Source of the DNA: Halodesulfovibrio spirochaetisodalis
GTDB lineage: Bacteria; Desulfobacterota; Desulfovibrionia; Desulfovibrionales; Desulfovibrionaceae
Direction of reading: 5' to 3'
Length of the DNA stretch: 24,000 bases
NCBI RefSeq assembly: GCF_001672295.1
Contig: NZ_JXMS01000024.1
Location: 18,173 to 42,172, forward strand
The notes under the pieces: model-generated
The model's input: only the letters and a program-made list of their open reading frames with translations
What the model was told of the DNA's origin: nothing
Databases searched by the model: none
Shown here: positions 4,485 through 24,000 of the stretch, piece by piece
How positions within the stretch are numbered: position 1 is the first letter of the stretch
Layout of the letters: every line of letters starts with the position of its first letter
Made by a program: the position numbers and the translations under genes

Positions 4485-4637
4485 ACACAAGTCCTAGCAA
4501 AAAGGTTGAGTGCAGCGGGAGTCATTCTGCCAAACAACAACACACTGCCGTAAACGTTCTATCCAAACTTCCTTATGGATAAAATAATGCCCCTGACCCT
4601 AGCAAAAGCACGAAACTCAGGCAAACCGCACTACGCT

Positions 4638-4667
4638 AAAAAAGCCCGAAGAGAACCTCTCCGAGCT
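4638..4667 (-). terminator. Rho-independent terminator after the symporter gene
   Basis: On the minus strand: AGCUCGGAGAG-guu-CUCUUCGGGCU (11 bp with two G-U pairs) followed by UUUUUU. The G-U pairs become C-A mismatches on the plus strand, so the element is minus-oriented. It separates the symporter from the activator gene. Confidence 0.75.
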
Positions 4668-4701
4668 TTTGTTGTAGTACTAACAATAATTACAGAACCG
4701 C

Positions 4702-6180: not shown

Positions 6181-6183
6181 ATG

Positions 6184-7140
6184 CTACTCCGTTCCAGTGT
6201 GTCGTTTGTTGTAAGCAAGACATGATAAGAATGCATGCATAATTCCGGCTGCAGCAAAGGATGTAATGTCTGCAGTGTCAGATTCCGGCAGAACTTCCAC
6301 AAGATCCATCCCGACAAGGTTTAGTCCCTGGCAGGATTCAAGCATCAGCTTGAGTGCTTCATGTGTTGTAAAGCCACCAATCTCTGGCGTTCCGGTTCCC
6401 GGAGCGTATGCCGCATCGAGAAAATCAATATCAAAGGTAACAAAAACTGGTGTATTCGGAGTAATACGCCTACGGATGCGTTCTACAGCAGCTTCAACGC
6501 CAATGTGATGCAGTTCCCATCCTGTGATGACGTCCATCCCGCTTTCTCGCGCAAATTTTAATCCATCACGGCTATAGAGGGGCCCACGAATGCCCACCTG
6601 TGAGGACTCTTCCGGTTTGAACAGACCTTCTTTGATAGCCCAGTGGAAAGTTGTTCCATGGTTGTATGGCTTACCAAAATAGTCATTACCGGTATCAGAA
6701 TGTGCATCAAAATGGATAAGAGCAACCGGACCATGTTTTTTTGCCACAGCACGCAGTTCCGGCAGTGTAATAGAGTGGTCTCCGCCCATGATCACAGGAA
6801 CAGCGCCTTCCTGTATGACGTTACTAACCCCCTCTTCTATTTTTTCAAAGCTCTCCTCCAAGTATCCGGGAACAATGTCTATATCTCCACAATCCACACC
6901 GGTACACTCTTCAAAAATATCTACATCTAACACTTCATTATAGTTTTTCAGAATACTGGACGCTGCTCGAATAGATTCCGGTCCAAAACGGCACCCCGGT
7001 TTATACGATGTTGCAGTATCAAACGGGACACCAAGAATCGCAAAATCCACACCTTCTGCGGTCGCAACATTAGGCAAACGCATAAACGTACGCACCCCGC
7101 AAAACCGAGGAGATTCTAAAGAATTAATTGGCTTACTCAC
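6184..7140 (-). CDS. Ureohydrolase of the arginase/agmatinase family (agmatinase or guanidino-acid hydrolase)
   Basis: Mn-binding signature motifs GGDHSIT, DAHSD and FDIDFLDAAYAPGTGTPEIGG. The N-terminal FMRLP segment is typical of agmatinase-like enzymes. I place the start at GTG 7140, with AGGAGG 5 nt upstream. The ORF-track start at 7197 is a TTG without an SD. Confidence 0.85.
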   Translation of the reverse strand: MSKPINSLESPRFCGVRTFMRLPNVATAEGVDFAILGVPFDTATSYKPGCRFGPESIRAASSILKNYNEVLDVDIFEECTGVDCGDIDIVPGYLEESFEKIEEGVSNVIQEGAVPVIMGGDHSITLPELRAVAKKHGPVALIHFDAHSDTGNDYFGKPYNHGTTFHWAIKEGLFKPEESSQVGIRGPLYSRDGLKFARESGMDVITGWELHHIGVEAAVERIRRRITPNTPVFVTFDIDFLDAAYAPGTGTPEIGGFTTHEALKLMLESCQGLNLVGMDLVEVLPESDTADITSFAAAGIMHAFLSCLAYNKRHTGTE

Positions 7141-7289
7141 ACTTTCCTCCTGAGATTGCCCTGCCCATGGGACAGTCTCAGCAAAACAAACGGGCAAAAA
7201 TCAAACTACATTCAACATCCACCACAATATATGGCGATAACGTATCAAAATATATTGCCGGACAAGGGCAGGGTATTCCTCCTATAAGG

Positions 7290-11982: not shown

Positions 11983-12969
11983 TTACAGGATATCTCCGGA
12001 AAAGAGGGAGTGCTCAATGCCGTTCTCGTCCTGCAAAACAAGCATACCGTCAGTGGATACATCCACTACTGTTCCAGAAAAAGTTTCTCCCCGAACTTGC
12101 ACAGTGAGTTCTTTGCCCACTACATCTGTCAGTTCTTTCCAACGGGAAAGCAACGGTGCAAAGCCTTGCTTTGTCACGAGCAGGTACCAGTGCTCATAGC
12201 GGGTCAAAAACGCCTGCAGCAGTTCAACACGGGAAATATGTTTCCCCGCTGCCTCTTCAAGCGAGCACGGAACCGTGCGTAGTTCCGGCACCAGTTTTTC
12301 CGGCAACGGAGCAACATTGATTCCCGCGCCTGAAATAACGTGCCCTACACTGTCTCCCGAAAGAAAAACCTCAGTCAGGTTTCCGGCAACCTTACACCCG
12401 TCTATCAAAACATCATTAGGCCATTTGCAGACAGGAATGATATCCGTCAGATCCTGAACAGCTTCTGCCGCCGCAACATTCGTAAGCAGAGTGATGAGCG
12501 GTGCCTCGTTAGGAGCAATATCCGGTCGCAGCACAACGGAAACGTACAGGCCGCACCCAGAAGGAGAATGCCATGTTCGCCCCTGCCGCCCGCGTCCGCC
12601 CGTCTGCTCATCAGCAACGACCACAGTTCCTTCAGGAGCATCACCAAGAGCAAGCTTCATTGCCTCAAGGTTTGTAGACCCGACACTCGGTAAATAGTGA
12701 ATGTCATGCTGCCCGAACACTGTTGTGGTAAGCCCCTGCCGCACCACATCCTGCGTCATTTTTTCTGCTTTACGCACCAGCCGGTAGCCTTTACGAGTTA
12801 CCGCTTCAATCTCATGCCCTTGTCCACGCAACACACTTACGTGCTTTGATACCGCCGCACGGGAAATTGAAAACAACTGGCTTACATCTTCGCCAGAAGT
12901 ATATCTATCTGTATTTTTTTGCAGCAGTTCCAAAATTTTTGTCCGAACCGCATCGCCCCGTAACGCCAT
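11983..12969 (-). CDS. birA: Bifunctional biotin--[acetyl-CoA-carboxylase] ligase / biotin operon repressor
   Basis: N-terminal winged HTH (ISRAAVSKHVSVLRGQGHEIE), the biotin-ligase loop GGRGRQGRTWHS, and a C-terminal SH3-like tail. GAGG lies 5 nt before the ATG. Confidence 0.92.
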   Translation of the reverse strand: MALRGDAVRTKILELLQKNTDRYTSGEDVSQLFSISRAAVSKHVSVLRGQGHEIEAVTRKGYRLVRKAEKMTQDVVRQGLTTTVFGQHDIHYLPSVGSTNLEAMKLALGDAPEGTVVVADEQTGGRGRQGRTWHSPSGCGLYVSVVLRPDIAPNEAPLITLLTNVAAAEAVQDLTDIIPVCKWPNDVLIDGCKVAGNLTEVFLSGDSVGHVISGAGINVAPLPEKLVPELRTVPCSLEEAAGKHISRVELLQAFLTRYEHWYLLVTKQGFAPLLSRWKELTDVVGKELTVQVRGETFSGTVVDVSTDGMLVLQDENGIEHSLFSGDIL

Positions 12970-12981
12970 CGCTACCTCTAA

Positions 12982-13015
12982 TTGTAAACCTTTCAGAAAG
13001 GCGTAAAGTTGACAA
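12982..13015. promoter_or_regulatory. BirA operator (bioO-like inverted repeat)
   Basis: TTGTAAACC-N16-AGTTGACAA. This has the same half-sites and spacing as E. coli bioO as I recall it (TTGTAAACC-N16-GGTTTACAA), with two mismatches in the right arm. It lies between divergent birA and bioB. Confidence 0.8.
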
Positions 13016-13175: not shown

Positions 13176-14156
13176 ATGACTACCACCGCTTTATCTGTGT
13201 ACGCCCTGTGTGAAGAGGTTGTCCAGTCTGGAAAAGGTATCAGCCGTGCTGATGCCGAAATGCTTATCAATCTTCCAGACAGCGCAACACTCGATCTGCT
13301 TGCAGGTGCACGCCGTATCCGTTCCGCAGTGACCACAAATCCATCGTTCACCTGCGGTATTGTAAACGCAAAATCCGGCAAGTGCAGCGAAAACTGTTCG
13401 TTCTGTGCACAGTCAAAATATCATGACACAGGCGCACCTATTTATCCGCTTATAGAGCCACACACCCTGCTTACCCGCGCAAAGGAGCTGGAAGCAGCCG
13501 GAGCAAACCGGTACGGCATAGTTACCAGTGGAATGGCTCTTTCCGACAAAGAGTTGGATACCGTATGCGAAGCAGCACTTGCCATCACAACACAAACCAG
13601 CCTTAACGTATGCGGCTCCCTTGGTCAGCTTTCTCCGGACATGGCGCTCCGTTTACGGCAGGCAGGATTTTCAAGCTACCATCACAATCTTGAAACAGCA
13701 CGTTCCCACTTTTCTGCTATTTGCAGCACACATGAATACGATGAAGATATTGCATCCGTACAAATTGCCCTTGATGCCGGTTTTCGCGTCTGCTCTGGCG
13801 GCATATTAGGACTTGGCGAAAACCGCAACCAGCGAGTTGAGCTGGCCTGTACCCTGCGCGATCTCAATGTTCCTTCCGTCCCTATGAACTTCCTTACACC
13901 AGTTAAAGGAACACGGCTGGAAAATCAGCCACTTTTACCTGCCTCAGAAGCACTCCGAGCCATTGCTGTCTACCGGTTCATTCTCCCGACGCAGGACATT
14001 TTAATCGCAGGTGGACGTGAAAACACACTAGGTGAGCTTCAGTCTCTTATCCCTATGGCAGGCGCAAACGGTCTTATGATCGGCAACTACCTGACCACAA
14101 GCGGACGCAGCACAAACGATGATATAGCCATGCTGACCAGCCTTGGCGTTTTATAA
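13176..14156 (+). CDS. bioB: Biotin synthase (radical SAM)
   Basis: Radical-SAM triad CSENCSFC, 326 aa, BioB-like throughout, and first gene of the bio operon. Confidence 0.93.
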   Translation: MTTTALSVYALCEEVVQSGKGISRADAEMLINLPDSATLDLLAGARRIRSAVTTNPSFTCGIVNAKSGKCSENCSFCAQSKYHDTGAPIYPLIEPHTLLTRAKELEAAGANRYGIVTSGMALSDKELDTVCEAALAITTQTSLNVCGSLGQLSPDMALRLRQAGFSSYHHNLETARSHFSAICSTHEYDEDIASVQIALDAGFRVCSGGILGLGENRNQRVELACTLRDLNVPSVPMNFLTPVKGTRLENQPLLPASEALRAIAVYRFILPTQDILIAGGRENTLGELQSLIPMAGANGLMIGNYLTTSGRSTNDDIAMLTSLGVL

Positions 14157-14165
14157 GGAAGATAC

Positions 14166-15521
14166 ATGAGCACAACTCAAGATTTGCAAACAATTGACCG
14201 CACCAACGTATGGCACCCATTCACTCAGATGGCAGAGTGGGTGCAGCAAGACCAGCTCATCATAGAAAGCGGTAAGGATAACTGGCTCATAGACACAGAA
14301 GGGAACCGTTATCTGGACGGAATTTCATCTCTCTGGACAAACGTACACGGACACTGTGTGCCGGAAATAGACAACGCCGTGCAGGAACAGCTTGGTAAAA
14401 TTGCACACACAACCATGCTTGGGCTTGCCAATGTGCCTGCAACCGAACTTGCAAAACGTCTTGTGGATATTCTTCCACAGGGGCTCACACGTGTTTTCTA
14501 TTCTGACAGCGGTTCCACTGCTGTGGAAGTAGCACTTAAAATTGCGTTCCAGTTTCAGCAGCAGGCAGAAAAAGGTGACCCGAACCGCATCAAATTTATC
14601 TCCATGCAAAATTCCTATCACGGAGACACCATCGGTTCTGTTGCTGTTGGCGGCATGGATTTATTCCACGCCACATACAAGCACATGCTCTTCCAAGGTG
14701 AAAAGGTTCTCAGCCCCTACTGTTACCGTTGTCCATTTGGCAAAGAGAAAGCAACCTGCGACCATGAATGTTTCCAGCACGTAGAAGATGTACTCAGCGA
14801 ACACGGAAGCACTGCGGCCGCGTTTGTTATTGAACCTCTGGTACAGGGTGCGGCAGGACAAATTATGCATCCTGAAGGATACCTCGCACACGTTCGCGAG
14901 CTATGCACGCGCCACAATGTACTTCTTATTGCAGATGAGGTTGCAGTCGGCTTCGGCAAAACCGGAACCATGTTCGCCTGCGAGCAGGAAAATATCACAC
15001 CGGATATTATCTGCCTCGCCAAAGGCATCAGCGCAGGCTACCTGCCGCTTGCAGCAACAGTAGCGTCAGAAGAAATCTACAACGGGTTCCTTGGGAAGCA
15101 CGAAGAGTTCAAAACTTTCTTCCACGGCCATACATATACAGGCAACCCGCTTGCCTGTGCTGCCGCCATTGCTAACCTCGACTACTTTGAAAACAACAAT
15201 GTCATGGAAAAGCTTCAGCCCAAGATTGCTCACCTGCAAAACAGACTGAACGCCATGCAAGAACTTGAACACGTCGGTGAAATACGCATTCGGGGCATCA
15301 TGACAGGCATTGAGCTTGTGAAAGACAAAGGCAGCAAAGCATCGTTCGAAGCAGCAGCAAAGATCGGTCACAGGGTCTGTATGGAAGCACGCAAGTACGG
15401 GGTTATTATCCGTAACCTTGGTGATGTCATCATCCTTATGCCACCGCTCAGTATTTCTCTCAGTGAAATAGACCTTCTTTGCGATGCAACTGCCAAGGCA
15501 ATTAGCACTGTCACTGAATAA
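14166..15521 (+). CDS. bioA: Adenosylmethionine-8-amino-7-oxononanoate aminotransferase
   Basis: Class III aminotransferase. N-terminal VWHPFTQM, DEVAVGFGKTG, and the PLP-lysine context LAKGISAGYLP. GGAAG precedes the ATG, which is 9 nt after bioB. Confidence 0.92.
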   Translation: MSTTQDLQTIDRTNVWHPFTQMAEWVQQDQLIIESGKDNWLIDTEGNRYLDGISSLWTNVHGHCVPEIDNAVQEQLGKIAHTTMLGLANVPATELAKRLVDILPQGLTRVFYSDSGSTAVEVALKIAFQFQQQAEKGDPNRIKFISMQNSYHGDTIGSVAVGGMDLFHATYKHMLFQGEKVLSPYCYRCPFGKEKATCDHECFQHVEDVLSEHGSTAAAFVIEPLVQGAAGQIMHPEGYLAHVRELCTRHNVLLIADEVAVGFGKTGTMFACEQENITPDIICLAKGISAGYLPLAATVASEEIYNGFLGKHEEFKTFFHGHTYTGNPLACAAAIANLDYFENNNVMEKLQPKIAHLQNRLNAMQELEHVGEIRIRGIMTGIELVKDKGSKASFEAAAKIGHRVCMEARKYGVIIRNLGDVIILMPPLSISLSEIDLLCDATAKAISTVTE

Positions 15522-15746
15522 GTTTTATCCTGAGGAGTGTCTCCGACAGCTCTCCTCGGGACGGGGCACTGCCCCTCTCCCCCGCAAGGGCGCCCCTCCT
15601 TGGCCGCGAGTAGTTTAGACAGGTTTGGGCAGTTACCCGACTGCCTTGCCCGAGGTAATAACACTAGGACAACTCACCCACTTATGCGGTCAAGGAAGGG
15701 TCTCCCTCGCGATATAAACGCAGTCCCCTTCTGGAGGCAAACCATC
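15522..15746 (+). other. GC-rich, structure-prone intra-operon spacer (possible structured RNA, processing site or internal regulatory element)
   Basis: A non-coding-looking 225 nt between bioA and the next gene, visibly more GC-rich than its flanks. Helices:
- CCTGAGGAG/CTCCTCGGG (15529-15560).
- GGGGC-act-GCCCC (15563-15575).
- CCC-GCAA-GGG (15581-15590).
- GGCAG-N8-CTGCC (15628-15645).
- Long-range CCTCGGG/CCCGAGG (15554-15560 with 15649-15655). Confidence 0.4.
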
Positions 15747-16055
15747 ATGTTCAACCTTACCGGAACATTCACATTTCCAGCAGACGAAGCTGCACTTCAG
15801 GATCATTTTCCTGACAGTCCGGTCATTCCGGGCACACTCATTATCCACAGCTTTGTACACGCGCTGCGCACCCGAATGCCGGAAGCTATGTTGAGTGCAA
15901 ACAGATTCCGCTTCAAAGAATTTATTACGCCTGCATCATATCAGTACAGCATTGAGCAAACACCATCAGGCTTTTCATGCACTCTGTTCAACAAAGGAAG
16001 AAAAGCTGTTACCGGACGCCTAGATATACAGACAAGAGGAGACGCCAATGGCTGA
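15747..16055 (+). CDS. Small FabZ/FabA-like hotdog-fold protein (His-box subunit)
   Basis: ATG at 15747 with GGAGG 9 nt upstream. DHFPDSPVIPGTLIIHS aligns with the FabZ motif HFPGxPxxPGVLxxEA, but His replaces the catalytic Glu. It is only 102 aa and lacks the FabZ N-terminal RFPFLLVD segment. Confidence 0.7.
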   Translation: MFNLTGTFTFPADEAALQDHFPDSPVIPGTLIIHSFVHALRTRMPEAMLSANRFRFKEFITPASYQYSIEQTPSGFSCTLFNKGRKAVTGRLDIQTRGDANG

Positions 16056-16797
16056 TATTCCCATCCACCTTTCAGGTACTCATGCATGCATACTCGGTGC
16101 ATCTTCAGATCTTGGGATGGCTATTGCGCACACCCTTGCTGACGCTGGAATAGAATTGACCCTGTCAGCCTGTTCTGAACAAGGAATTAATCGCATCACG
16201 TTAGCGTTTCCCGCCGCAACCATTCTCAAGCTCGATATGAAAGAGATTGCTCAATATGCCATGACGGATAGAGCATCCGAGCTCGATGGAATTGATTCTC
16301 CAGACTACCTTATCGACTGTATGCAAACTGATTTTGAAGCATTTATTGCTGGTGCAGAATCCTCTGATGTCACGAGCTATATGGAAACAAACATATCAGG
16401 CAGAGCTGCCTGCCTGCGGCATATTTCCCGCATGATGCTGGGCAAACGATTTGGGCGATGCATTTTTATTTCTTCTACAGCAGCAGCACTTCCCAACGCA
16501 GGTCAAGGTTTCTACAGCGCAAGCAAACTTGCAGGAGAAGCACTGTATCGAAGTCTCGGGGTTGAACTCGGAAAGCGCGGCGTCACCAGCTGCTCTGTGC
16601 GTCTTGGATATGTCCAGAGTGGAAGAGGTACAGATTTTCTGGAAAAAAATCCGCAAACAACCGGCCGCATCCCTATGGCTCGCGCTGTAACAGCGCAAGA
16701 AGCAGCCCGTTCAATTGCTTTTTTACTGAGTGATGATGCTCAGATGATAAACAGCACAACCATTACCATGGACGGCGGATTAACCGCCTGTAAATAG
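16048..16797 (+). CDS. Short-chain dehydrogenase/reductase, FabG-like 3-oxoacyl-ACP reductase
   Basis: Rossmann N-terminus ILGASSDLGMAIA (variant TGxxxGxG), NISG, and catalytic Ser (ISSTAA) and YSASK (YxxxK). GAGGAG precedes the ATG. Overlaps the upstream gene by 8 nt. Confidence 0.85.
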   Translation: MADIPIHLSGTHACILGASSDLGMAIAHTLADAGIELTLSACSEQGINRITLAFPAATILKLDMKEIAQYAMTDRASELDGIDSPDYLIDCMQTDFEAFIAGAESSDVTSYMETNISGRAACLRHISRMMLGKRFGRCIFISSTAAALPNAGQGFYSASKLAGEALYRSLGVELGKRGVTSCSVRLGYVQSGRGTDFLEKNPQTTGRIPMARAVTAQEAARSIAFLLSDDAQMINSTTITMDGGLTACK

Positions 16798-16805
16798 GAA
16801 CCACC

Positions 16806-17174
16806 ATGTTCAGTTTTAAAAAAGTACAACGAGTAATTACCGAGGTTCTGGAACTAGAACCGGAAGAAGTTACTTCAGAAACATATATTATGCGGGACTT
16901 ACCTACAGAATCCATCGACCTGATGGAATACGGTGTAGGGTTGGCAAAAGAATGCGGCATTTCTGTGCATGACGAAACAGTCTTCATTAAATCCCTGCGC
17001 CTGCACATGGCAGAAGCTGAAGACCGGGGACTTGATCCAGTTACATACCTTATGTCCAAGTACCCTCACCTTTCCGCAGAACGACTTACTGAAATGATCA
17101 GCACAGTACACGAAGGCCCTGTCTTACAGGTGCGCGATATTGTGGCCTATGTCGATCATGCTAAACGACATTAG
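16806..17174 (+). CDS. Atypical acyl carrier protein with ~45 aa C-terminal extension
   Basis: RDLPTESIDLMEYGVGL aligns with the ACP motif DLGADSLDTVE. The predicted phosphopantetheine Ser is residue 36 (codon 16911-16913), the same position as in E. coli ACP. It is 122 aa, against ~78 aa for canonical ACP. Confidence 0.75.
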   Translation: MFSFKKVQRVITEVLELEPEEVTSETYIMRDLPTESIDLMEYGVGLAKECGISVHDETVFIKSLRLHMAEAEDRGLDPVTYLMSKYPHLSAERLTEMISTVHEGPVLQVRDIVAYVDHAKRH

Positions 17175-17183
17175 GATTTTTAC

Positions 17184-18404
17184 ATGCGCAATCGGGTTGT
17201 TATCACAGGCACAGGGTATGTCACCTCATTGGGAACTCTACCGGAAACCATACTGCATTCTGTCCAACAGAACACACCGGCATTCAGAACTTCTGAACAC
17301 TTCTCCGATTGCATGGAATGCCCGATATCTGATTTTGACCTGACGCAAAGCACCGGACGCTGGAAAAACAAAAAGTATCTGGCACGAGGAGCTCAGTTTG
17401 CGCTGGCTTCTGCCATTCGAGCAGTTGAAGACTGCGGCCTTAACACTGGCCATTTTGAGAATGCAGGATTATTCACCGGCACAGGTCCTAACTTCGACAT
17501 AGGCACAGACTTTCCTGACGTTCAAGGCGGTAAGCTGGATAACGACAGTCTAGCTGCTCTGTGGATGCTTAAATATCTTCCTAACACTGCAGCCAGTGCC
17601 ATCAGCCAGTTTCTGCATATTCATGGTGAAAACTCCACCATAGGCACGGCATGCTCTGCTTCAACACAAGCAATCGGGGAAGCATTCCGAAAAATTAAGG
17701 ATGGCTACCTGACTGTGGCGCTTGCCGGTGGTGGTGACTCCAGACTCTCCCACGGCGGACTGCTTGCCTACAACAAAGCTCAGGCGCTCTGGAATAACTG
17801 GGGAGAACCAACAGGAGCCTGCCGCCCGTTTGATGCTGAACGGAACGGATTTATTACAGGAGAAGGCGGTGCCATGTTTGTTCTGGAATCTTTAGAACAC
17901 GCACAGCAACGCGGAGCACATATTATTGCAGAAATCTGTGGATATGGAGCCACTATGGATGCGCAGAGTATGACAGCGCCACATCCAGAAGGACACTATG
18001 CAGAGCAAGCTGTAAAAGCTGCATTGGCAGAAGCTGTTCTTCTGCCGGAAGCAATTGATCTTGTTGCCGCACACGGTACTTCCACACAGCTTAACGACCA
18101 GATGGAAGCAGCAATGCTGGAGCGAGTTTTCTATACTGAGGACACTTCCCGGACACCACAGGTTACCGCGCTGAAATCATGGATTGGACACTGTGCTGCG
18201 GCATCCGGTGCGGTTGAGTTGGGAGTTCTGCTTGCTCTTCTAGCACAAGGCATTGTTCCTCCTGTTCGTAACCTAACTGCTCCCTGTTCTGAAAACATTG
18301 CCTTTGTCACACGCGAGGAACCATTCTCCGGTTCACATATCTTGTTAGAAAACTTTGGATTCGGTGGTCAAAACAGCGCGCTGGTTATGCGCCTCTGGTC
18401 ATAA
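17184..18404 (+). CDS. Beta-ketoacyl-ACP synthase, KAS I/II (FabF/FabB-like)
   Basis: Active-site Cys157 (GTACSAS), His297 (AAHGTST), Lys331/His336 (LKSWIGHCAAASG), and the C-terminal NFGFGGQNSALV. A Cys-His-His triad marks a decarboxylating elongation condensing enzyme. Confidence 0.9.
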   Translation: MRNRVVITGTGYVTSLGTLPETILHSVQQNTPAFRTSEHFSDCMECPISDFDLTQSTGRWKNKKYLARGAQFALASAIRAVEDCGLNTGHFENAGLFTGTGPNFDIGTDFPDVQGGKLDNDSLAALWMLKYLPNTAASAISQFLHIHGENSTIGTACSASTQAIGEAFRKIKDGYLTVALAGGGDSRLSHGGLLAYNKAQALWNNWGEPTGACRPFDAERNGFITGEGGAMFVLESLEHAQQRGAHIIAEICGYGATMDAQSMTAPHPEGHYAEQAVKAALAEAVLLPEAIDLVAAHGTSTQLNDQMEAAMLERVFYTEDTSRTPQVTALKSWIGHCAAASGAVELGVLLALLAQGIVPPVRNLTAPCSENIAFVTREEPFSGSHILLENFGFGGQNSALVMRLWS

Positions 18405-18842
18405 ATGCAATACGATTCAACCATACACTTCGGGGTAGAGCGCTTTATCCTTATGGATTCAATTACACAACACGATTCCCATGCGCTTACCTCTGAAAAA
18501 AAATTTACGAAGGCACCTGCCTATCTTGCACTGGAAGCAATGGCACAGACCGGAGGCATGCACTTTAGAAAATGCATGGGCTTTGCTCGCCATGCATTCC
18601 TGCTTTCCGTCCAGCAAGTGCCGTTGCCCAACGTATCAACATTTTCCGGCTGCGGAACAACCAAGGCTGTGCAGACTGCTCTCACGGACTCCACAGCAGC
18701 CTACGACATTTTGTTTACCTGTGGAGAAATTGAGCTTTCCGGCTCATTTCTCTTCGGCAGTACTAAATTTGGTGACCAGTTTTCACAAGGCACCCTTGCA
18801 ACCCATTACAGCGAGTTATTCCAATGGTTACAGAACGCCTGA
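18405..18842 (+). CDS. Second FabZ-like hotdog-fold protein (Glu-box subunit), function uncertain
   Basis: Its ATG directly abuts the KAS stop (TAAATG). ERFILMDSI resembles the FabZ N-terminal RFPFLLVDRV, and YLALEAMAQTGG matches the FabZ Glu box LILEAMAQ. The HFP His box is missing through an apparent ~11-residue deletion. Confidence 0.6.
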   Translation: MQYDSTIHFGVERFILMDSITQHDSHALTSEKKFTKAPAYLALEAMAQTGGMHFRKCMGFARHAFLLSVQQVPLPNVSTFSGCGTTKAVQTALTDSTAAYDILFTCGEIELSGSFLFGSTKFGDQFSQGTLATHYSELFQWLQNA

Positions 18843-19966
18843 AACGCTCCATAAGTATACGGAAATCTGCCGGACTGCATCGCGACCCCATAACTGTTGA
18901 AAAACATATGGGCAGCAGCGCTCTTGTTAACGGGAAGCAGCTTATCAACTTTGCGTCCAATGACTATCTGGGGCTGGCTCAAGATACAGAGTGGCAAAAA
19001 ACACTCAGCGAATGTTTTGCCAACCATCCTCCATCCGGAACTTCATCACGGCTGGTGAGCGGCCACAACAGTTTCACCGAGGCAGTGGAGCAAGAATTTG
19101 CCGCATACTTCGGTTATGACGAGGCCATGTTCTTCCCAAGCGGGTATCAGGCAAATCTTGCGGCCATCAACGGATTATGCAGTCCTGCAGAGACTATTTT
19201 TTATGACAAACGCATCCATGCAAGCATGGTACAGGCTCTTCCCCAGACAGGGAGTACATTAAAAGGCTTCGCGCACAGTGATCTTTTTCAACTGGACAGG
19301 AAACTCTCCGATGCACAGAGCGAATCTGCCGTAGTGCTTACTGAGTCCCTTTTCAGCATGGATGGAGACCAGCTGGACACAGAAACATTCCATCAACTTA
19401 AATACCTGCACAGCTTCTTCAGCATTGTTGACGAAGCCCATGCGTTCGGTGCCCTCGGTCATAACGGTACAGGCATCTGCCGTGGCCTTACTGAGGTTGC
19501 CGTTGGAACATTCGGCAAGGCGCTGGGTATGTTCGGGGCATTCATACTGATGCCCTCAGGCTTCAAAGAATTTTTCCACAATTTTGCATCACCGGTAATA
19601 TACTCCACAGCCATGCCTGAAGCACATGCAGCAGCTGCTGCTGCCCTGCTCCAAAAACTGCCGCAAATGGGACAGCAACGTGCCCACCTTGCTGCCATAT
19701 CTGAACTCATGCGTTCAGAACTTCAAGACGCGGGCTTCACCGTGCAAGGTGATGCACATATTATTTCCATTGGAATCGGAGATGAGATGAAAGCCGCAAA
19801 ACTTGCGGAAAAAATGCAGGATGACGGTGTGCTTGCATTTGCATCCAGATATCCGACAGTACCAATGAACAAAGCTGTCATACGGATAAGTATGACAGCC
19901 TTGCACAGTACTGCGGACGTACACACATTCGTCAACAGTATCAGGGGGTGGTATGACAGAACCTAA
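18824..19966 (+). CDS. bioF: 8-amino-7-oxononanoate synthase
   Basis: INFASNDYLGL, SGYQANLA, DEAHAFG and the PLP lysine in TFGKALG. Overlaps the upstream gene by 19 nt. Confidence 0.92.
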   Translation: MVTERLKRSISIRKSAGLHRDPITVEKHMGSSALVNGKQLINFASNDYLGLAQDTEWQKTLSECFANHPPSGTSSRLVSGHNSFTEAVEQEFAAYFGYDEAMFFPSGYQANLAAINGLCSPAETIFYDKRIHASMVQALPQTGSTLKGFAHSDLFQLDRKLSDAQSESAVVLTESLFSMDGDQLDTETFHQLKYLHSFFSIVDEAHAFGALGHNGTGICRGLTEVAVGTFGKALGMFGAFILMPSGFKEFFHNFASPVIYSTAMPEAHAAAAAALLQKLPQMGQQRAHLAAISELMRSELQDAGFTVQGDAHIISIGIGDEMKAAKLAEKMQDDGVLAFASRYPTVPMNKAVIRISMTALHSTADVHTFVNSIRGWYDRT

Positions 19967-20657
19967 TCCATCATATTTCGTTGTCGGTACAGATACCGAT
20001 GTGGGTAAGACAGTTGCTTCCCTGATGCTTATGCGCTTCCTCATAAAGACGGGGCACTCGCCATATTACTGGAAGCCGGTGCAAACAGGCTGTCTCAGCC
20101 CGAACGAGGCAGGCGCGGACGCCAGCTTCGTTCTTAAATATTGTCCAGAAGTACAGCAAACTGCTGCTGATGCTACCGGAGCCTGCTTTAACGCTCCCAA
20201 GGCTCCATTCTATGCTGCCCGTGATGAACAAAGCAGCATAGAAGTGGAAGACCTTTTACACAAACTGGCATATTTGCGTAAAAATAATACCTTGGTGGTC
20301 GAAGCGGCAGGAGGACTGCTGGTGCCGTTCAGCCGCACACACATGTTGGCGGACATGGTACAACTGGCTGTCGAGCGGTTCGGGATCAAGCCCATACTCG
20401 TTGCACGAGCCGGACTCGGTACAATCAACCATACGCTTCTTTCCATTGAGGCGTTGCATCACCGGGGCGTTCAACCGGCAGGGATAGTGTTTGTGAATAA
20501 CAAGGAACACCGTACACCACAGGCGATGCTGCAGGAAAACATGGAGGCAATCTCCACATTTTCAAACTATTCTGTATGCGGATGTATTCCACATATTGAA
20601 GACTTTACGTGTCCTCCCGAAGAGGCAATTACACTCTTCGAGAAGATCGCTGGCTAG
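19953..20657 (+). CDS. bioD: Dethiobiotin synthetase
   Basis: P-loop VVGTDTDVGKT and EAAGGLLVP. Overlaps bioF by 14 nt and is the last gene of the operon. Confidence 0.92.
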   Translation: MTEPNPSYFVVGTDTDVGKTVASLMLMRFLIKTGHSPYYWKPVQTGCLSPNEAGADASFVLKYCPEVQQTAADATGACFNAPKAPFYAARDEQSSIEVEDLLHKLAYLRKNNTLVVEAAGGLLVPFSRTHMLADMVQLAVERFGIKPILVARAGLGTINHTLLSIEALHHRGVQPAGIVFVNNKEHRTPQAMLQENMEAISTFSNYSVCGCIPHIEDFTCPPEEAITLFEKIAG

Positions 20658-20776: not shown

Positions 20777-22078
20777 TTACTTTTCACCAAACTCGCTGAT
20801 GAGAGCATCCGCTTCCGGATACATATTCAAAAGGTCATTCAATGTTTCACGACGACGGATGAGGCGTGCTTCACCATTTTCCTGAATAAGCACTTCTGCC
20901 GGACGAGGACGCTGGTTGTACGGGGATGCCATTACATATCCGTATGCACCTGCGTCGAGCATGGCAATTACATCACCTTCTGCAATCTCAGGAAGCTGAC
21001 GGTCTTTTGCCATGATGTCACCGGATTCGCAGATGTTTCCGACAATGGTCTGTTCCATTGTTTCGGTAACTTCGCTGCCGCCTTCACGGTAAATTTCCAC
21101 GTCGTGGAATGAATCATACATGGCAGGACGCATAAGCTGGTTAAAGCCAAGGTCGGTACCAGCAAAGCGCTTTTCACCGTTGTTCTTTACGCTGAAACAT
21201 GTGCCGAGCAGAACACCGCATTCTGCTGCAATGTAGCGCCCCGGTTCACACATAAAGCGACCGGTGTAGCCAGTCTCTTCTGCAAACTGTGTAATCGTAG
21301 CATGGAATGCTTTACCAAGCTCAGTGAGATCAAGACGCTCTTCACCGTCATATTTACGGTACGGGATACCAAAGCCACCACCGAAATCGATAATTTCAAT
21401 GGCGTTACCTTCAGTCATCCACTCTTTTGCAATGGAGAGCAGTACACCCATTGCTTCAAGGTACCCATCCGGCTCCATGAACAACGAACCGATATGCATG
21501 TTCACACCGCACAGAGTAAGGTTGTGACGCCCCAGAATCTCACGCACAGTATCTGCAGATTCAGGATCAACCCCGAACTTGGTCTGCTTACCGCCTGTTA
21601 CCACCTTGGCATGGTGACCTGCACCAATACCCGGATTAAAGCGGATTACAACCTTGCCGCCCGGATTCAACTGCCCGAACAGATCCAGTTGCGAGAGAGA
21701 ATCGACGCTCACATATACGCCACGATCAATGGCGAACTGGAGTTCTTCAGCAGAGACGTTGTTTGAGATGAACAGAATCTGCTCCGGCGTAAATCCGGCG
21801 GCAAGGTTCATGACAATCTCACCCGGAGACATGGCGTCCACAACCATGCCCTCTTCCTGTACTACCTTAAGGAGGTGAATATTCGTATTCGCTTTCGCAG
21901 AATAGTTAGGCGTAAAGGATGGATTGTCAGAAAGCGCCTGAACTTCACGGCAACGAGTACGCAGTACATTCTCGTTATATACATACAGCGGACTGCCGAA
22001 TGTTTTTACAAGCTCCATAGGAGTGTTGTTACCGTAAAAATTTACACTGTCAGTATAGGTGGAGCGAACATTGCTCAT
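20777..22078 (-). CDS. lysA: Diaminopimelate decarboxylase-like PLP enzyme (alanine racemase-fold / group IV decarboxylase)
   Basis: PLP lysine in YSAKAN, then HIGS, DFGGGFG, EPGR and ICESGD. The CESGD box is characteristic of DAP decarboxylase rather than ornithine decarboxylase. AGGAG lies 8 nt before the ATG. Substrate was not verified. Confidence 0.75.
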   Translation of the reverse strand: MSNVRSTYTDSVNFYGNNTPMELVKTFGSPLYVYNENVLRTRCREVQALSDNPSFTPNYSAKANTNIHLLKVVQEEGMVVDAMSPGEIVMNLAAGFTPEQILFISNNVSAEELQFAIDRGVYVSVDSLSQLDLFGQLNPGGKVVIRFNPGIGAGHHAKVVTGGKQTKFGVDPESADTVREILGRHNLTLCGVNMHIGSLFMEPDGYLEAMGVLLSIAKEWMTEGNAIEIIDFGGGFGIPYRKYDGEERLDLTELGKAFHATITQFAEETGYTGRFMCEPGRYIAAECGVLLGTCFSVKNNGEKRFAGTDLGFNQLMRPAMYDSFHDVEIYREGGSEVTETMEQTIVGNICESGDIMAKDRQLPEIAEGDVIAMLDAGAYGYVMASPYNQRPRPAEVLIQENGEARLIRRRETLNDLLNMYPEADALISEFGEK

Positions 22079-22093
22079 GCCGAAATCTCCTGA

Positions 22094-22783
22094 TTAAATG
22101 CCTCGTATCTTAATAAGCTCAATTTCATTAAGCAGAGCTTCACGCATTAAGGATACGAGATGCTTGTTTTTTGAATAGAGACACTGCCCTTTATTCACTT
22201 CGAGCGTGCCCACTATAACTTCGCTGGTATCAGCGATGATGCGTACATTCTCCGCCGGAGCTTCATTATGCATAAAGACTGCGCCGGAAAGATGCGGGTC
22301 CTCATCTGATAAAATCACTACCTTAAGTCCACGTTCGATACAGTTCTCTAAATCAGACGTAAGCAGCTTTACAGTTGAGGATGAGACAGAAAGATATACC
22401 CACCCTTTTGCAAGCAGAATCATATTCCGCATTTTATCAAGAGTGTTTCCGTACCCTGAAATGGTAAGGTACGGTGCTTCTTCCTCTTCCTGCTCAGGTA
22501 AATTTTCTTCCAGAAATTCCAATGTCGATTCACAGGATCGACGTAAATTCAAAATAAGTTCTTCACGAGGAATCGCAGTATACTTACTGGAGTCTTCCGA
22601 AGAAACGATTGCTCCGCCTTTTTCAACAAGGCTGGATAACGCAGCGTATGCATTGGATCGGGAAATGCCGGAAACCTTCGCGGCCTCATACCCTGTCATG
22701 GCACCCATTTTACAAAGAGTAACGTACATCAGAGACTCTTGCTGAGTGAAACCAAATTTCTTCAATGCCTGAATGAGTTCCAT
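22094..22783 (-). CDS. TrmB-family transcriptional regulator
   Basis: The N-terminal winged HTH LKKFGFTQQESLMYVTLCKMGAMTGYEAAKVSGISRSNAYAALSSLVEKG is typical of TrmB-type regulators. GGAG lies 5 nt before the ATG. The stop is 15 nt before the lysA-like start. Confidence 0.8.
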   Translation of the reverse strand: MELIQALKKFGFTQQESLMYVTLCKMGAMTGYEAAKVSGISRSNAYAALSSLVEKGGAIVSSEDSSKYTAIPREELILNLRRSCESTLEFLEENLPEQEEEEAPYLTISGYGNTLDKMRNMILLAKGWVYLSVSSSTVKLLTSDLENCIERGLKVVILSDEDPHLSGAVFMHNEAPAENVRIIADTSEVIVGTLEVNKGQCLYSKNKHLVSLMREALLNEIELIKIRGI

Positions 22784-23228: not shown

Positions 23229-23654
23229 ATGGCACAGGTCAAAGACGGCGATTCAGTTAAAGTTCACTACACAGGTACTCTTGAAGACGGCACGGTTTTC
23301 GATTCCTCTCGCGAGCGCGAACCTCTGGAGTTTACTCTTGGTTCCGGCATGCTTATTCCTGGTTTCGAAAAAGCTGTTGAGGGTATGAATGTAGGTGATT
23401 CTACTAAAGTTACTATCCCGGCAGACGAAGCATACGGCCAGCGCAATGACGAAATGGTTATTGATGTTGCCAACGATCAGGTGCCAGAGCACATCACTCC
23501 TGAAGTAGGCATGCTCTTGCAGCTCGAGTCTGAAGGCGGAGTAATGGAAGTAGTCATTACTGACGTCAAAGAAGACGGCATTACTCTTGATGCCAACCAC
23601 CCGCTCGCAGGTAAAGACCTTACCTTCGAAATTGAACTCGTTGAAATCGTGTAA
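23229..23654 (+). CDS. FKBP-type peptidyl-prolyl cis-trans isomerase (SlyD-like, no His-rich tail)
   Basis: VKVHYTGTLEDGTVFDSS...LIPGFEKAVEGMNVGD...AYG plus an inserted flap domain and NHPLAGKDLTFEIELV. The ATG at 23229 has GGAG upstream. The ORF-track start at 23169 is a TTG extension. Confidence 0.88.
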   Translation: MAQVKDGDSVKVHYTGTLEDGTVFDSSREREPLEFTLGSGMLIPGFEKAVEGMNVGDSTKVTIPADEAYGQRNDEMVIDVANDQVPEHITPEVGMLLQLESEGGVMEVVITDVKEDGITLDANHPLAGKDLTFEIELVEIV

Positions 23655-23771: not shown

Positions 23772-24000
23772 CTACTGTTTTAATTCAGCAACAAGCCCCT
23801 TAAGTTGCAAAGCAACTGAAGAAAGCTCTTTAACCGCAACTGAAGACTCTTGTATTCCAGCAGTCGTTTCCGCAACCACCACATTTACTTCTTCAAGTGC
23901 TCTGTTAATTTCTTCTGAAGTAGCAGATTGCTGCTCGGCTGCCGTTGCGATGCTGCTAATCAGGATGGATCCTTCCGCAGACATGTCTACAATTGCCTGT
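23772..24000 (-). CDS. Methyl-accepting chemotaxis protein, C-terminal part (gene continues beyond the window)
   Basis: IATAAEQQSATSEEINRALEEVN and the following coiled-coil are typical of the MCP signalling-domain C-terminus. The reading frame stays open to the window edge. Confidence 0.8.
   Translation of the reverse strand, partial: QAIVDMSAEGSILISSIATAAEQQSATSEEINRALEEVNVVVAETTAGIQESSVAVKELSSVALQLKGLVAELKQ

What the first reader, a model, noticed from the sequence alone, without database searches (positions are those of the whole stretch)
15747..18842. Private fatty-acid-synthase-like module embedded in the biotin operon where pimeloyl-thioester genes should be
**Seen in the sequence**
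- The operon reads bioB-bioA-[hotdog, SDR/FabG-like, ACP-like, KAS I/II-like, hotdog]-bioF-bioD, all on one strand.
- From 15747 to 20657 the genes are translationally coupled: an 8-nt overlap, 8-9 nt gaps, a TAAATG abutment, then 19-nt and 14-nt overlaps.
- The whole unit lies behind a BirA operator.

**Established knowledge**
- BioF needs pimeloyl-ACP or pimeloyl-CoA.
- The known sources are BioC/BioH (methyl-masked malonyl-ACP run through housekeeping FAS), BioW, BioI, and BioZ (a KAS III acting on glutaryl-CoA).
- None of these is in the cluster.

**Inference**
- The five genes form a dedicated ACP-tethered route to the pimeloyl moiety.
- The KAS has a Cys-His-His triad, so it should carry out decarboxylative elongation.
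- There is no enoyl reductase, malonyl transacylase, phosphopantetheinyl transferase, methyltransferase or esterase. Those steps must be borrowed from elsewhere or be unnecessary.
- How a free omega-carboxylate is tolerated without BioC-type masking is the open mechanistic question.

**Prior notice**
- From memory, comparative-genomics work on Desulfovibrio bio loci has noted FAS-like genes in this position.
- I cannot verify that here, and I know of no biochemical reconstitution.
Basis: partly seen in the sequence, partly recalled or inferred. Interest (0 to 1): 0.85.

Follow-up and report, generated by a model that had tools for sequence, protein, structure and literature searches.

The report
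Known Desulfovibrio-type pimeloyl-ACP biotin module
Five fatty-acid-synthase-like genes inside this biotin operon are real and almost certainly make the pimeloyl precursor of biotin, but the gene cluster was predicted in 2004 and shown genetically in 2023, so only its chemistry is still open.

Summary
**Observation: confirmed.** The layout is birA, a BirA operator, then bioB-bioA-[short hotdog, SDR, ACP-like, KAS I/II-like, hotdog]-bioF-bioD.

**Novelty: already known.**
- Rodionov et al. 2004 predicted this five-gene insert in Desulfovibrio.
- Trotter et al. 2023 showed by RB-TnSeq that all nine cluster genes plus a nitroreductase-like gene are needed without biotin. Their supplement already shows a Halodesulfovibrio cluster.
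- The window comes from a Halodesulfovibrio relative.
- I found no biochemical reconstitution.

- The order is kept in 54 loci. In 32 of them a nitroreductase gene sits between ACP and KAS; it is absent here.
- The two hotdogs complement each other. HD1 keeps the FabZ His (40/40). HD2 lacks the His loop but keeps the Glu (49/49). This suggests an ApeI:ApeP-like heterodimeric dehydratase.
- The KAS keeps Cys-His-His but has clade-invariant polar or basic residues at acyl-pocket positions (Arg187, Tyr196, Pro102, Asp105).
- The reductase has an invariant Arg193.
- These arginines are candidate sites for the free omega-carboxylate.

The parts
11983..12969 (-). birA, bifunctional biotin-protein ligase and repressor, divergent from the operon
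   Evidence: TIGR00121 1e-53 (above cut-off). HTH_11 + BPL_LplA_LipB + BPL_C domains.
12982..13015 (.). BirA operator TTGTAAACC-N16-AGTTGACAA, 13 nt upstream of the birA start and 161 nt upstream of the bioB start
   Evidence: single match, 0.02 expected by chance; the same site is in H. aestuarii L001; published Desulfovibrio sites are TTGTAAACC-N15-xGTTgACAx.
13176..14156 (+). bioB, biotin synthase
   Evidence: TIGR00433 3e-109, above cut-off.
14166..15521 (+). bioA, adenosylmethionine-8-amino-7-oxononanoate transaminase
   Evidence: TIGR00508 4e-164, above cut-off.
15522..15746 (+). 225-nt structured non-coding spacer between bioA and HD1, role unknown
   Evidence: MFE -90.8 kcal/mol, z = -3.25; no Rfam match; no promoter-like or terminator-like site; only partly conserved with H. 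aestuarii; not repeated elsewhere.
15747..16055 (+). HD1, a short (102 aa) FabZ-like hotdog that carries the catalytic His (His20 in HFPDSPVIPG). The FabZ Glu position holds His.
   Evidence: weak FabA/FabZ hits; family profile vs FabZ structures E=7e-8, and vs 6qsr_A (small subunit of the ApeI:P dehydratase heterocomplex) E=6e-4. His 40/40, Glu position variable. GGAGG ribosome-binding site 8 nt upstream of the ATG.
16048..16797 (+). FabG-like SDR, proposed 3-oxoacyl-ACP reductase. Catalytic Ser143/Tyr156/Lys160; clade-invariant Arg193.
   Evidence: adh_short_C2 1.7e-29. TIGR01830 6e-30, below cut-off. S/Y/K 41/41, G-R-G 41/41, glycine-rich motif and NNAG motif degenerate.
16806..17174 (+). 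Specialised acyl carrier protein (122 aa). Ser36 lies in the TESID motif, and three extra helices are inserted (residues ~64-103).
   Evidence: ACP models 6e-9, below cut-off. E-S-I-D with Ser 42/42. AlphaFold pLDDT 88; ACP structures are the best Foldseek matches, though none reaches E<=0.001 (best 6.6e-3; target TM ~0.7); helical insert.
17184..18404 (+). KAS I/II-type ketosynthase with Cys157-His297-His336, Lys331 and gate Phe393, and an altered acyl pocket (Pro102, Asp105, Trp127, Arg187, Tyr196)
   Evidence: both ketoacyl-synt domains; fabF 1.3e-87, below cut-off; alignments to FabF structures; residue conservation and pocket enrichment.
18405..18842 (+). HD2, a 145-aa divergent hotdog. 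It lacks the FabZ His loop, keeps Glu44 (LALEAMAQ) and has an extra C-terminal helix.
   Evidence: no family hit; 218 representative clusters at E<=1e-3 among 1.84 billion proteins. FabZ structures E=3e-4; hotdog model; FabZ TM ~0.64; 6qsr_B at rank 7. Glu 49/49, His loop absent 49/49.
18824..19966 (+). bioF, 8-amino-7-oxononanoate synthase, the consumer of the pimeloyl thioester
   Evidence: TIGR00858 1.5e-91 is the best hit, but 306.9 bits is below the 426 cut-off; directly follows HD2 in almost all loci.
19953..20657 (+). bioD, dethiobiotin synthase
   Evidence: TIGR00347 1.3e-38, above cut-off.

Best explanation
The five genes are the Desulfovibrio-type private fatty-acid-synthase-like module that makes pimeloyl-ACP for BioF. 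It works on its own acyl carrier protein and does not use BioC/BioH methyl-ester masking.

**Proposed route.**
1. Housekeeping enzymes (AcpS, FabD), encoded outside the window, activate the specialised ACP and load it with malonate.
2. The Cys-His-His ketosynthase takes a malonyl primer, later a glutaryl primer, onto Cys157. The free omega-carboxylate sits in a shortened polar pocket (Arg187, Tyr196, Asp105, Pro102, Trp127).
3. The ketosynthase condenses the primer with malonyl-ACP, with decarboxylation.
4. The FabG-like reductase (Ser143/Tyr156/Lys160, with invariant Arg193) reduces the 3-keto group.
5. An HD1:HD2 heterodimer dehydrates the product at one composite site. HD1 gives His20 and HD2 gives Glu44.
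6. An enoyl reductase encoded elsewhere saturates the double bond. It is probably nitroreductase-like, or else the housekeeping enzyme.
7. Two rounds give C3 to C5 to C7. BioF takes pimeloyl-ACP, and BioA, BioD and BioB finish biotin.

BirA represses the unit from the operator between birA and bioB.

**What is shown here:** gene content, order, catalytic residues, folds and conservation.
**What is shown elsewhere:** the genetic requirement for biotin synthesis in D. vulgaris.
**What is inferred:** the substrates, the roles of the arginines, the heterodimer and the identity of the enoyl reductase.
For: - **Gene identities and junctions:**
- **BirA operator:**
- **Synteny:** HD1-SDR-ACP-(nitroreductase)-KAS-HD2-bioF is kept in 54 loci across three Desulfobacterota orders and one Elusimicrobia MAG. 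Beyond them, the next KAS relatives (<=39% identity) lie in non-bio contexts.
- **Literature:** predicted in 2004. In 2023 RB-TnSeq showed all nine genes DVU2558:DVU2565, plus nitroreductase-like DVU1220, are specifically required without biotin, and that bioC and bioH are absent.
- **KAS:** Cys/His/His/Lys/Phe invariant in 49/49. Clade-specific changes are Ile108 to Pro (48/49), Phe202 to Tyr (49/49) and Ala193 to Arg (48/49). Ile108 and Phe202 are the documented back gate of the FabF acyl pocket. Five of the 22 clade-specific positions fall among 10 pocket residues chosen beforehand (p=6e-5).
- **Reductase:** catalytic triad 41/41 and Arg193 41/41.
- **ACP:** Ser 42/42; ACP fold with a helical insert.
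- **Hotdogs:** HD1 His 40/40; HD2 Glu 49/49 with the His loop deleted. FabZ similarity for both. Both partners resemble the two chains of the ApeI:P dehydratase heterocomplex 6QSR.
- **Nitroreductase:** a PF00881 gene lies between ACP and KAS in 32 loci.
Against: - No biochemistry exists for any step, and I found no reconstitution.
- The placement of Ala193 in the FabF acyl pocket rests on my memory of the cerulenin complex. I could not inspect coordinates.
- In 10 of 40 HD1 sequences the FabZ Glu position also holds Glu, so HD1 could be self-sufficient in those species.
- The HD2 model also matches hotdog thioesterases (PA1618, TM 0.57).
- Co-transcription across the 225-nt bioA-HD1 spacer is not shown.
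- The rest of this genome could not be searched for bioC, bioH, bioW, bioI, bioZ or a DVU1220 homologue.
Confidence: 0.8

Rival explanations
1. The module runs only one elongation round from a pre-formed C5 dicarboxylate, as BioZ does. A glutaryl thioester is condensed with malonyl-ACP to 3-ketopimeloyl-ACP and then reduced, rather than pimelate being built from three malonyl units.
For: - A single basic site (Arg187) at a fixed depth in the KAS pocket is easier to reconcile with one primer length than with both C3 and C5.
- Many hosts are Syntrophales or Desulfobacterales. From my own knowledge, glutaryl-CoA is a common intermediate in those groups.
- BioZ is an established precedent for a glutaryl primer.
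Against: - No acyltransferase or CoA ligase that could load glutarate onto the ACP is in the cluster.
- KAS I/II enzymes normally take acyl-ACP primers, not acyl-CoA.
- From my own knowledge, Desulfovibrionales are not known for a glutaryl-CoA pool. This was not tested here.
- The published proposal is elongation from malonyl-ACP.
Confidence: 0.12
2. HD2 is not a dehydratase partner. It is a hotdog thioesterase, either a chain-length editor or a release enzyme that frees pimelate or clears mis-elongated acyl chains from the private ACP. HD1 alone is then the dehydratase.
For: - The best single Foldseek hit of the HD2 model is thioesterase PA1618 (E=5.9e-6), and several 4HBT-type thioesterases follow.
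- HD2 lacks the dehydratase His.
- 10 of 40 HD1 proteins have both His and Glu.
Against: - At sequence level the HD2 profile hits only FabZ dehydratases. Its invariant Glu aligns exactly with the FabZ catalytic Glu in the same (L/I)E(A/S)xAQ motif.
- TM-scores are higher to FabZ (0.64) than to thioesterases (0.57).
- In 30 of 40 HD1 proteins the Glu is missing, so HD1 needs a Glu donor.
- HD1 is a truncated hotdog of 91-128 aa.
- The HD1/HD2 pair resembles the ApeI:P heterocomplex chain for chain.
- BioF uses pimeloyl-ACP directly, so no release step is required.
Confidence: 0.1
3. The insert makes some other acyl product, such as a lipid or another cofactor precursor, and merely rides in the bio operon.
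For: - All five proteins score below the equivalog cut-offs of their FAS counterparts, so their substrates are unknown in principle.
- A 225-nt spacer separates them from bioA.
Against: - In 54 loci the module sits directly upstream of bioF. In this window HD2 and bioF overlap by 19 nt.
- It lies behind a BirA operator.
- The D. vulgaris orthologues have biotin-specific fitness defects.
- No known pimelate route is present in the window.
Confidence: 0.03

Closest known systems
Extended biotin operon of Desulfovibrio vulgaris Hildenborough, DVU2558-DVU2565 (Rodionov et al. 2004; Trotter et al. 2023)
   Same: - Same gene set and order: birA, BirA operator, bioB, bioA, FabZ-like, 3-oxoacyl-ACP reductase, ACP, FabF-like KAS, second FabZ-like ORF, bioF, bioD.
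- The downstream lysA-lysX neighbours are the same too.
- The published Supplementary Figure S3 already includes a Halodesulfovibrio cluster.
   Different: - Different species: a Halodesulfovibrio relative, about 72% KAS identity to H. aestuarii.
- Operator spacer is N16 rather than N15.
- A 225-nt spacer follows bioA.
- D. vulgaris itself was not among the loci I retrieved, so orthology is shown through other Desulfovibrio species (43-50% KAS identity, same synteny).
BioC/BioH pathway (E. coli)
   Same: - Same overall logic: malonyl thioester elongated by two FAS-type cycles to a pimeloyl-ACP that BioF consumes.
   Different: - No methyltransferase or esterase is present.
- The pathway has its own ACP, KAS, reductase and dehydratase instead of borrowing the housekeeping FAS.
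- The omega-carboxylate is presumably left free and recognised by basic residues, rather than disguised as a methyl ester.
BioZ (alpha-proteobacterial KAS III using glutaryl-CoA)
   Same: - A dedicated ketosynthase inside a bio cluster that handles an unmasked dicarboxylate primer.
   Different: - BioZ is a FabH-type KAS III (Cys-His-Asn) that uses a CoA primer and hands the product to housekeeping FAS.
- The enzyme here is a KAS I/II type (Cys-His-His) with a private ACP, reductase and dehydratase.
ApeI:ApeP dehydratase heterocomplex of aryl-polyene synthesis (PDB 6QSR)
   Same: - A specialised type II FAS-like system with its own ACP, KS and KR, and two different hotdog subunits.
- The HD1 profile hits chain A (119 aa; E=6e-4).
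- The HD2 model hits chain B (152 aa; E=1e-5, TM 0.59).
   Different: - Different pathway and substrates.
- Sequence identity is only about 13-16%.
- Heteromer formation by HD1 and HD2 has not been tested.
Housekeeping type II FAS (FabF, FabG, AcpP, FabZ)
   Same: - Same folds and catalytic residues: Cys-His-His-Lys in the KAS, Ser-Tyr-Lys in the reductase, the phosphopantetheine Ser in the ACP, and His plus Glu in the hotdogs.
   Different: - All five score below the NCBIfam equivalog cut-offs.
- The KAS acyl-pocket residues are replaced.
- The reductase has degenerate glycine-rich and NNAG motifs.
- The ACP has a three-helix insert.
- The dehydratase active site is split over two genes.

Membership tests
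Desulfovibrio-type extended bio cluster (DVU2558-2565 type) | Five FAS-like genes (hotdog, SDR, ACP, KAS I/II, hotdog) in that order between bioA and bioF | tested here: met
   The same order is seen in 54 related loci, including Desulfovibrio, Bilophila and Halodesulfovibrio.
Desulfovibrio-type extended bio cluster (DVU2558-2565 type) | BirA operator between divergently transcribed birA and the bio operon | tested here: met
   TTGTAAACC-N16-AGTTGACAA at 12982-13015.
Desulfovibrio-type extended bio cluster (DVU2558-2565 type) | Genome lacks bioC, bioH/G, bioW, bioI and bioZ | tested here: inconclusive
   None is present in the 24-kb window.
Desulfovibrio-type extended bio cluster (DVU2558-2565 type) | Module genes are required for growth without biotin | not testable with these tools
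   Reported for D. vulgaris Hildenborough only (PMC10102598).
Beta-ketoacyl-ACP synthase I/II (FabF/FabB) | Cys-His-His triad with Lys335 and gate Phe400 (E. coli FabF numbering) | tested here: met
   Cys157, His297, His336, Lys331 and Phe393 are invariant in 49/49.
Beta-ketoacyl-ACP synthase I/II (FabF/FabB) | Housekeeping FabF equivalog score and hydrophobic acyl pocket (Ile108/Phe202 back gate) | tested here: not met
   294 bits against a cut-off of 493.75. Ile108 to Pro, Phe202 to Tyr, Ala193 to Arg, Leu111 to Asp.
FabG 3-oxoacyl-ACP reductase | Ser-Tyr-Lys catalytic residues and the ACP-docking Arg129/Arg172 | tested here: met
   Ser/Tyr/Lys 41/41. Arg or Lys at position 129 in 40/41 and at position 172 in 34/41.
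FabG 3-oxoacyl-ACP reductase | Equivalog score, TGxxxGxG motif and NNAG motif | tested here: not met
   104.6 bits against a cut-off of 297.75. LG(G/A)S(C/S)(D/E)L(A/G) in place of the glycine-rich motif, and (V/I)D(F/C)xQ in place of NNAG.
Acyl carrier protein | Phosphopantetheine-attachment Ser at the start of helix II, and a four-helix bundle | tested here: met
   E-S-I-D with Ser 42/42; the AlphaFold model aligns best with ACP structures, weakly (best E 6.6e-3; target TM ~0.7), and has three extra helices. Pfam PP-binding scores 17.8 bits, below the 20.8 cut-off.
FabZ 3-hydroxyacyl-ACP dehydratase | Both catalytic residues, His (HFPxxPxxPG) and Glu (LxxEAxAQ), in one polypeptide | tested here: not met
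   HD1 has His 40/40 but Glu in only 10/40 (His in this window). HD2 has Glu 49/49, and the His loop is deleted in 49/49.
FabZ 3-hydroxyacyl-ACP dehydratase | Hotdog fold | tested here: met
   HD2: (pLDDT 91.9; FabZ TM ~0.64). HD1: sequence profile only (E=7e-8). HD1 was not modelled.
BioC/BioH pathway | SAM-dependent malonyl-ACP O-methyltransferase and pimeloyl-ACP methyl ester esterase | tested here: not met
   No methyltransferase or alpha/beta-hydrolase gene is in the window. The genome-wide status is unknown.
BioZ | FabH-type KAS III with Cys-His-Asn | tested here: not met
   KAS I/II type with Cys-His-His. No KAS III model is among the NCBIfam hits.
ApeI:ApeP-type heteromeric dehydratase | Two different hotdog subunits that form a stable heterocomplex | not testable with these tools
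   Similarity to both 6QSR chains and complementary catalytic residues fit this.

The most novel reading that the evidence does not exclude
The module would be the first FAS-type machinery that elongates an unmasked dicarboxylate. Clade-invariant arginines in the ketosynthase pocket (Arg187, with Tyr196) and in the reductase lid (Arg193) would bind the free omega-carboxylate and set the C7 end point. The dehydratase would be an obligate heterodimer, with its active site split between two genes (His from HD1, Glu from HD2). In most lineages a nitroreductase-fold flavoenzyme would serve as the enoyl reductase. These residue-level points do not appear in the papers I could read.
Probability: 0.45. 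Interest if true: 0.6.

Novelty: already known. Interest (0 to 1): 0.35.

Why it matters
How bacteria make the pimelate part of biotin is the most variable step of the pathway. It is also the only step still unsolved in some lineages. Sulfate reducers and syntrophs use this private FAS-like route in place of BioC/BioH, BioW, BioI or BioZ. Working out its chemistry would close one of the last gaps in biotin biosynthesis. It would also show how FAS-type enzymes can accept a charged omega-carboxylate, which is useful for engineering dicarboxylic-acid production. This window adds no new kind of system. It is one more copy of a described cluster. The comparative residue analysis does give specific mutations and complexes to test.

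Tried and rejected
- **Fused HD1-HD2 model.** I built a paired alignment of HD1-linker-HD2 (A4) to test the heterodimer with AlphaFold.
- **HD1 against HD2.** Direct profile-profile comparison is not significant (hhalign probability 4.6%). Their kinship rests on each matching FabZ separately.
- **The bioA-HD1 spacer.**
  - Rfam gave no match, either for the whole window at gathering thresholds or for the spacer at E<=1.
  - It is not a repeat in the window or in the loci.
  - The consensus scan found no promoter-like or terminator-like site.
  - I rejected the longer GTG-started ORF (15537-16055) as the HD1 gene. Its first 70 residues are low-complexity, and homologues are 91-128 aa and begin near the ATG.
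- **Enoyl-reductase candidate in this organism.** I used the nitroreductase embedded in L014 as the query. It found 523 relatives, but no Halodesulfovibrio was named among the 120 listed. tblastn found nothing in the window.
- **Later biochemistry.** Three literature searches found none.
- **Ala193 in the FabF pocket.** I could not confirm this from the papers held. Only the Ile108-Phe202 back gate is documented there.
- **ORF 18481-18900.** I rejected this overlapping ORF (139 aa) as spurious, because it lies out of frame inside HD2 and bioF.

Full report
**1.

ORF listing and translation give, all on the + strand:
- bioB 13176-14156
- bioA 14166-15521
- a 102-aa ORF 15747-16055 (HD1)
- a 249-aa SDR 16048-16797
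- a 122-aa ACP-like protein 16806-17174
- a 406-aa ketosynthase 17184-18404
- a 145-aa ORF 18405-18842 (HD2)
- bioF 18824-19966
- bioD 19953-20657

- an 8-nt overlap (ATGGCTGA)
- 8-nt and 9-nt gaps
- a TAAATG abutment
- 19-nt and 14-nt overlaps

Family searches gave the following:
- bioB, bioA, bioD and the upstream divergent birA (11983-12969, minus strand) pass their NCBIfam cut-offs.
- bioF is the clear best hit (1.5e-91) but scores below its equivalog cut-off.
- The ketosynthase matches fabF (1.3e-87), the SDR matches FabG (6e-30) and the small protein matches ACP models (6e-9). All three are below the equivalog cut-offs, so none is the housekeeping enzyme.
- HD1 hits FabZ only weakly. HD2 hits nothing.

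A BirA operator, TTGTAAACC-N16-AGTTGACAA, lies at 12982-13015 between birA and bioB. Chance expectation is 0.02 matches per window.

A 225-nt non-coding spacer (15522-15746) separates bioA from HD1.

Nothing in the 24 kb resembles BioC, BioH, BioW, BioI, BioZ, an enoyl reductase, FabD or a phosphopantetheinyl transferase.

**2. Where the window comes from, and how widespread the module is**

The closest named relatives are Halodesulfovibrio species. H. aestuarii DSM 17919 (L001) has the identical neighbourhood: birA, bioBA, the five genes, bioFD, lysA, lysX.

A scan of species-representative genomes with the ketosynthase returned 54 loci at 42-72% identity. They come from Desulfovibrionales, Syntrophales, Desulfobacterales and one Elusimicrobia MAG. 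All keep HD1-SDR-ACP-KAS-HD2-bioF wherever the contig covers it. The next relatives (<=39% identity, Planctomycetota) lie in unrelated contexts with tandem ketosynthases.

An exhaustive profile search with HD2 found only 218 representative clusters among 1.84 billion proteins. The family is narrow.

**3. It is already known**

- Rodionov et al. [quoted passage not shown] It lies behind a BirA site between birA and bioB. [quoted passage not shown]
- Trotter et al. 2023 (PMC10102598) used RB-TnSeq in D. vulgaris Hildenborough. Nine clustered genes (DVU2558:DVU2565, including both FabZ-like ORFs, the reductase, the ACP and the KAS) are specifically required without biotin. So is the nitroreductase-like DVU1220.
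- They noted similar clusters in two further Desulfobacterota orders and in Desulfurispirillum, some with an embedded nitroreductase gene.
- Their Supplementary Figure S3 already includes a Halodesulfovibrio cluster, whose HD2 homologue had to be added to the annotation.
- They state that the biochemistry remains to be defined. I found no later reconstitution.

Their half-remembered prior notice is also right, and the finding is not new.

**4. What the sequences say about mechanism**

These are new inferences. They rest on conservation and not on experiment.

*(a) Ketosynthase*
- I aligned 49 bio-cluster ketosynthases with E. coli FabF and 25 outgroup ketosynthases.
- Cys157, His297, His336, Lys331, Thr299, Thr301 and the gate Phe393 are invariant. 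Decarboxylative Claisen condensation is therefore expected.
- The acyl-pocket positions are replaced in a clade-specific way: FabF Ile108 to Pro102 (48/49), Phe202 to Tyr196 (49/49), Ala193 to Arg187 (48/49), Leu111 to Asp105 (46/49) and Phe133 to Trp127 (48/49).
- Ile108 and Phe202 are the documented 'back gate' of the FabF acyl-binding pocket.
- Five of the 22 clade-specific positions fall among ten pocket residues that I had listed beforehand (hypergeometric p = 6e-5).
- The inclusion of Ala193 in that list rests on my memory of the cerulenin complex. I could not check it against coordinates.
- An invariant Arg plus Tyr in a shortened pocket is the obvious candidate site for the free omega-carboxylate of a malonyl or glutaryl primer. 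It is also a candidate ruler that stops elongation at C7.

*(b) Reductase*
- Ser143, Tyr156 and Lys160 are invariant (41/41). The ACP-docking positions Arg129 and Arg172 stay basic.
- The glycine-rich motif and the NNAG motif are degenerate.
- An invariant G-R-G (Arg193, 41/41) replaces FabG Met188 in the substrate lid. This is a second candidate carboxylate contact.

*(c) Carrier protein*
- The E-S-I-D serine is invariant (42/42).
- The AlphaFold model (pLDDT 88) is an ACP bundle with three extra helices at residues ~64-103.
- The insert is conserved across the family. It may keep the pathway separate from housekeeping FAS.

*(d) The two hotdogs complement each other*
- HD1 (91-128 aa in the family) keeps the FabZ HFPxxPVVPG histidine in 40/40 sequences.
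- The FabZ glutamate position in HD1 is variable: His 18, Glu 10, Gln 4 and others. It is His in this window.
- HD2 has the His loop deleted in 49/49 sequences. It keeps the glutamate of (L/I)E(A/S)xAQ in 49/49.
- The HD1 profile hits FabZ structures at E=7e-8. The HD2 profile hits them at E=3e-4, with the Glu aligned.
- The HD2 model (pLDDT 91.9) is a hotdog with an extra C-terminal helix and TM ~0.64 to FabZ.
- In FabZ and FabA the active site sits at the dimer interface. His comes from one subunit and Glu or Asp from the other (established knowledge). An HD1:HD2 heterodimer would therefore have exactly one complete site.
- Both partners resemble the two chains of the ApeI:ApeP dehydratase heterocomplex of aryl-polyene synthesis (6QSR). 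HD1 hits chain A at E=6e-4. HD2 hits chain B at E=1e-5.
- This would explain why both hotdog genes are individually required in D. vulgaris.

*(e) Enoyl reductase*
- In 32 of the loci a ~210-aa Pfam Nitroreductase (PF00881) gene lies precisely between ACP and KAS.
- It is missing from that position in the window, in all Desulfovibrionales loci, in the Desulfoluna loci and in L010.
- In D. vulgaris the distantly related DVU1220 is encoded elsewhere.
- The window has no such gene. I could not search the rest of the genome.

**5. Rival explanations**

- **One round from a glutaryl primer (BioZ-like).** This cannot be excluded. A single basic site fits one primer length better. However, no loading enzyme is in any cluster, and KAS I/II enzymes use acyl-ACP primers.
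- **HD2 as a thioesterase.** The best single Foldseek hit (PA1618) and the missing His support this. The FabZ-only sequence signal, the exact Glu motif, the lack of Glu in most HD1 proteins and the chain-for-chain resemblance to ApeI:P argue against it.
- **An unrelated acyl product.** The synteny with bioF, the BirA operator and the biotin-specific phenotypes effectively exclude this.

**6. Verdict**

Novelty is 'already known'.

The open part is the chemistry of handling an unmasked dicarboxylate on FAS-type enzymes. The residue-level predictions above (KAS Arg187 and Tyr196, SDR Arg193, the split His/Glu dehydratase, and a nitroreductase as enoyl reductase) make that directly testable. They remain inferences.

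Interest is 0.35.

Noticed in passing
window 15522-15746: A 225-nt GC-rich non-coding spacer lies between bioA and HD1. It folds unusually well (MFE -90.8 kcal/mol, z = -3.25), including a strong hairpin at about 15528-15561 with no U-tract after it. It has no Rfam match and is not repeated. The consensus scan found no promoter-like or terminator-like site. The equivalent spacer in H. aestuarii is about 350 nt and shares only a short 3' block (GCGGTCAAGG...). Its role is unknown.
   Followed up: partly
L002-L062 (e.g. L014:6286-6921, L047:6180-6785): In 32 related loci outside Desulfovibrionales, a ~210-aa Pfam Nitroreductase gene sits exactly between the ACP and KAS genes. It is absent from the window, from all Desulfovibrionales loci, from the Desulfoluna loci (L027, L030, L033) and from L010.
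   Followed up: yes
window 15747-18842 compared with L001: The five module proteins are much more diverged from H. aestuarii (66-75% identity) than the flanking genes are: bioB 88%, bioA 89%, bioD 94%, lysA 94%, lysX 97%. bioF (78%) and birA (83%) are intermediate. This suggests faster evolution of the private FAS-like enzymes.
   Followed up: no
window 20777-22783 (minus strand): lysA (diaminopimelate decarboxylase) and a TrmB-type regulator lie directly downstream of bioD on the opposite strand. In Rodionov 2004 the D. vulgaris lysX-lysA gene identifier (208064) lies close to that of bioB (208055), which suggests the same neighbourhood.
   Followed up: partly
window 12982-13015: The BirA operator half-sites are separated by 16 nt, as in H. 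aestuarii L001. The published consensus spacing is N14/15. Related loci L004/L007 and L011 show 15 and 14.
   Followed up: partly
window 18824-19966: The BioF here scores 306.9 bits against TIGR00858, below the 426.45 equivalog cut-off, although BioF is by far the best match. It may be adapted to the specialised ACP.
   Followed up: no
window 18405-18842: HD2 has no Pfam or NCBIfam family. Public records call it 'hypothetical protein', or in one case 'hotdog family protein'. The 2023 paper had to add its Halodesulfovibrio homologue to the annotation by hand. A spurious 139-aa ORF (18481-18900) overlaps it out of frame.
   Followed up: yes
window 3069-7197 (minus strand): An arginase/agmatinase-family gene, a sodium:solute symporter and a sigma-54 activator are adjacent. 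They may form a regulated amine or ureohydrolase utilisation unit. They are unrelated to the finding.
   Followed up: no
window 23229-23654 (+) and 23772-23984 (-): There is an FKBP-type (SlyD-like) peptidyl-prolyl isomerase ORF and what looks like the C-terminal end of a methyl-accepting chemotaxis protein. I judged both from the translations only.
   Followed up: no
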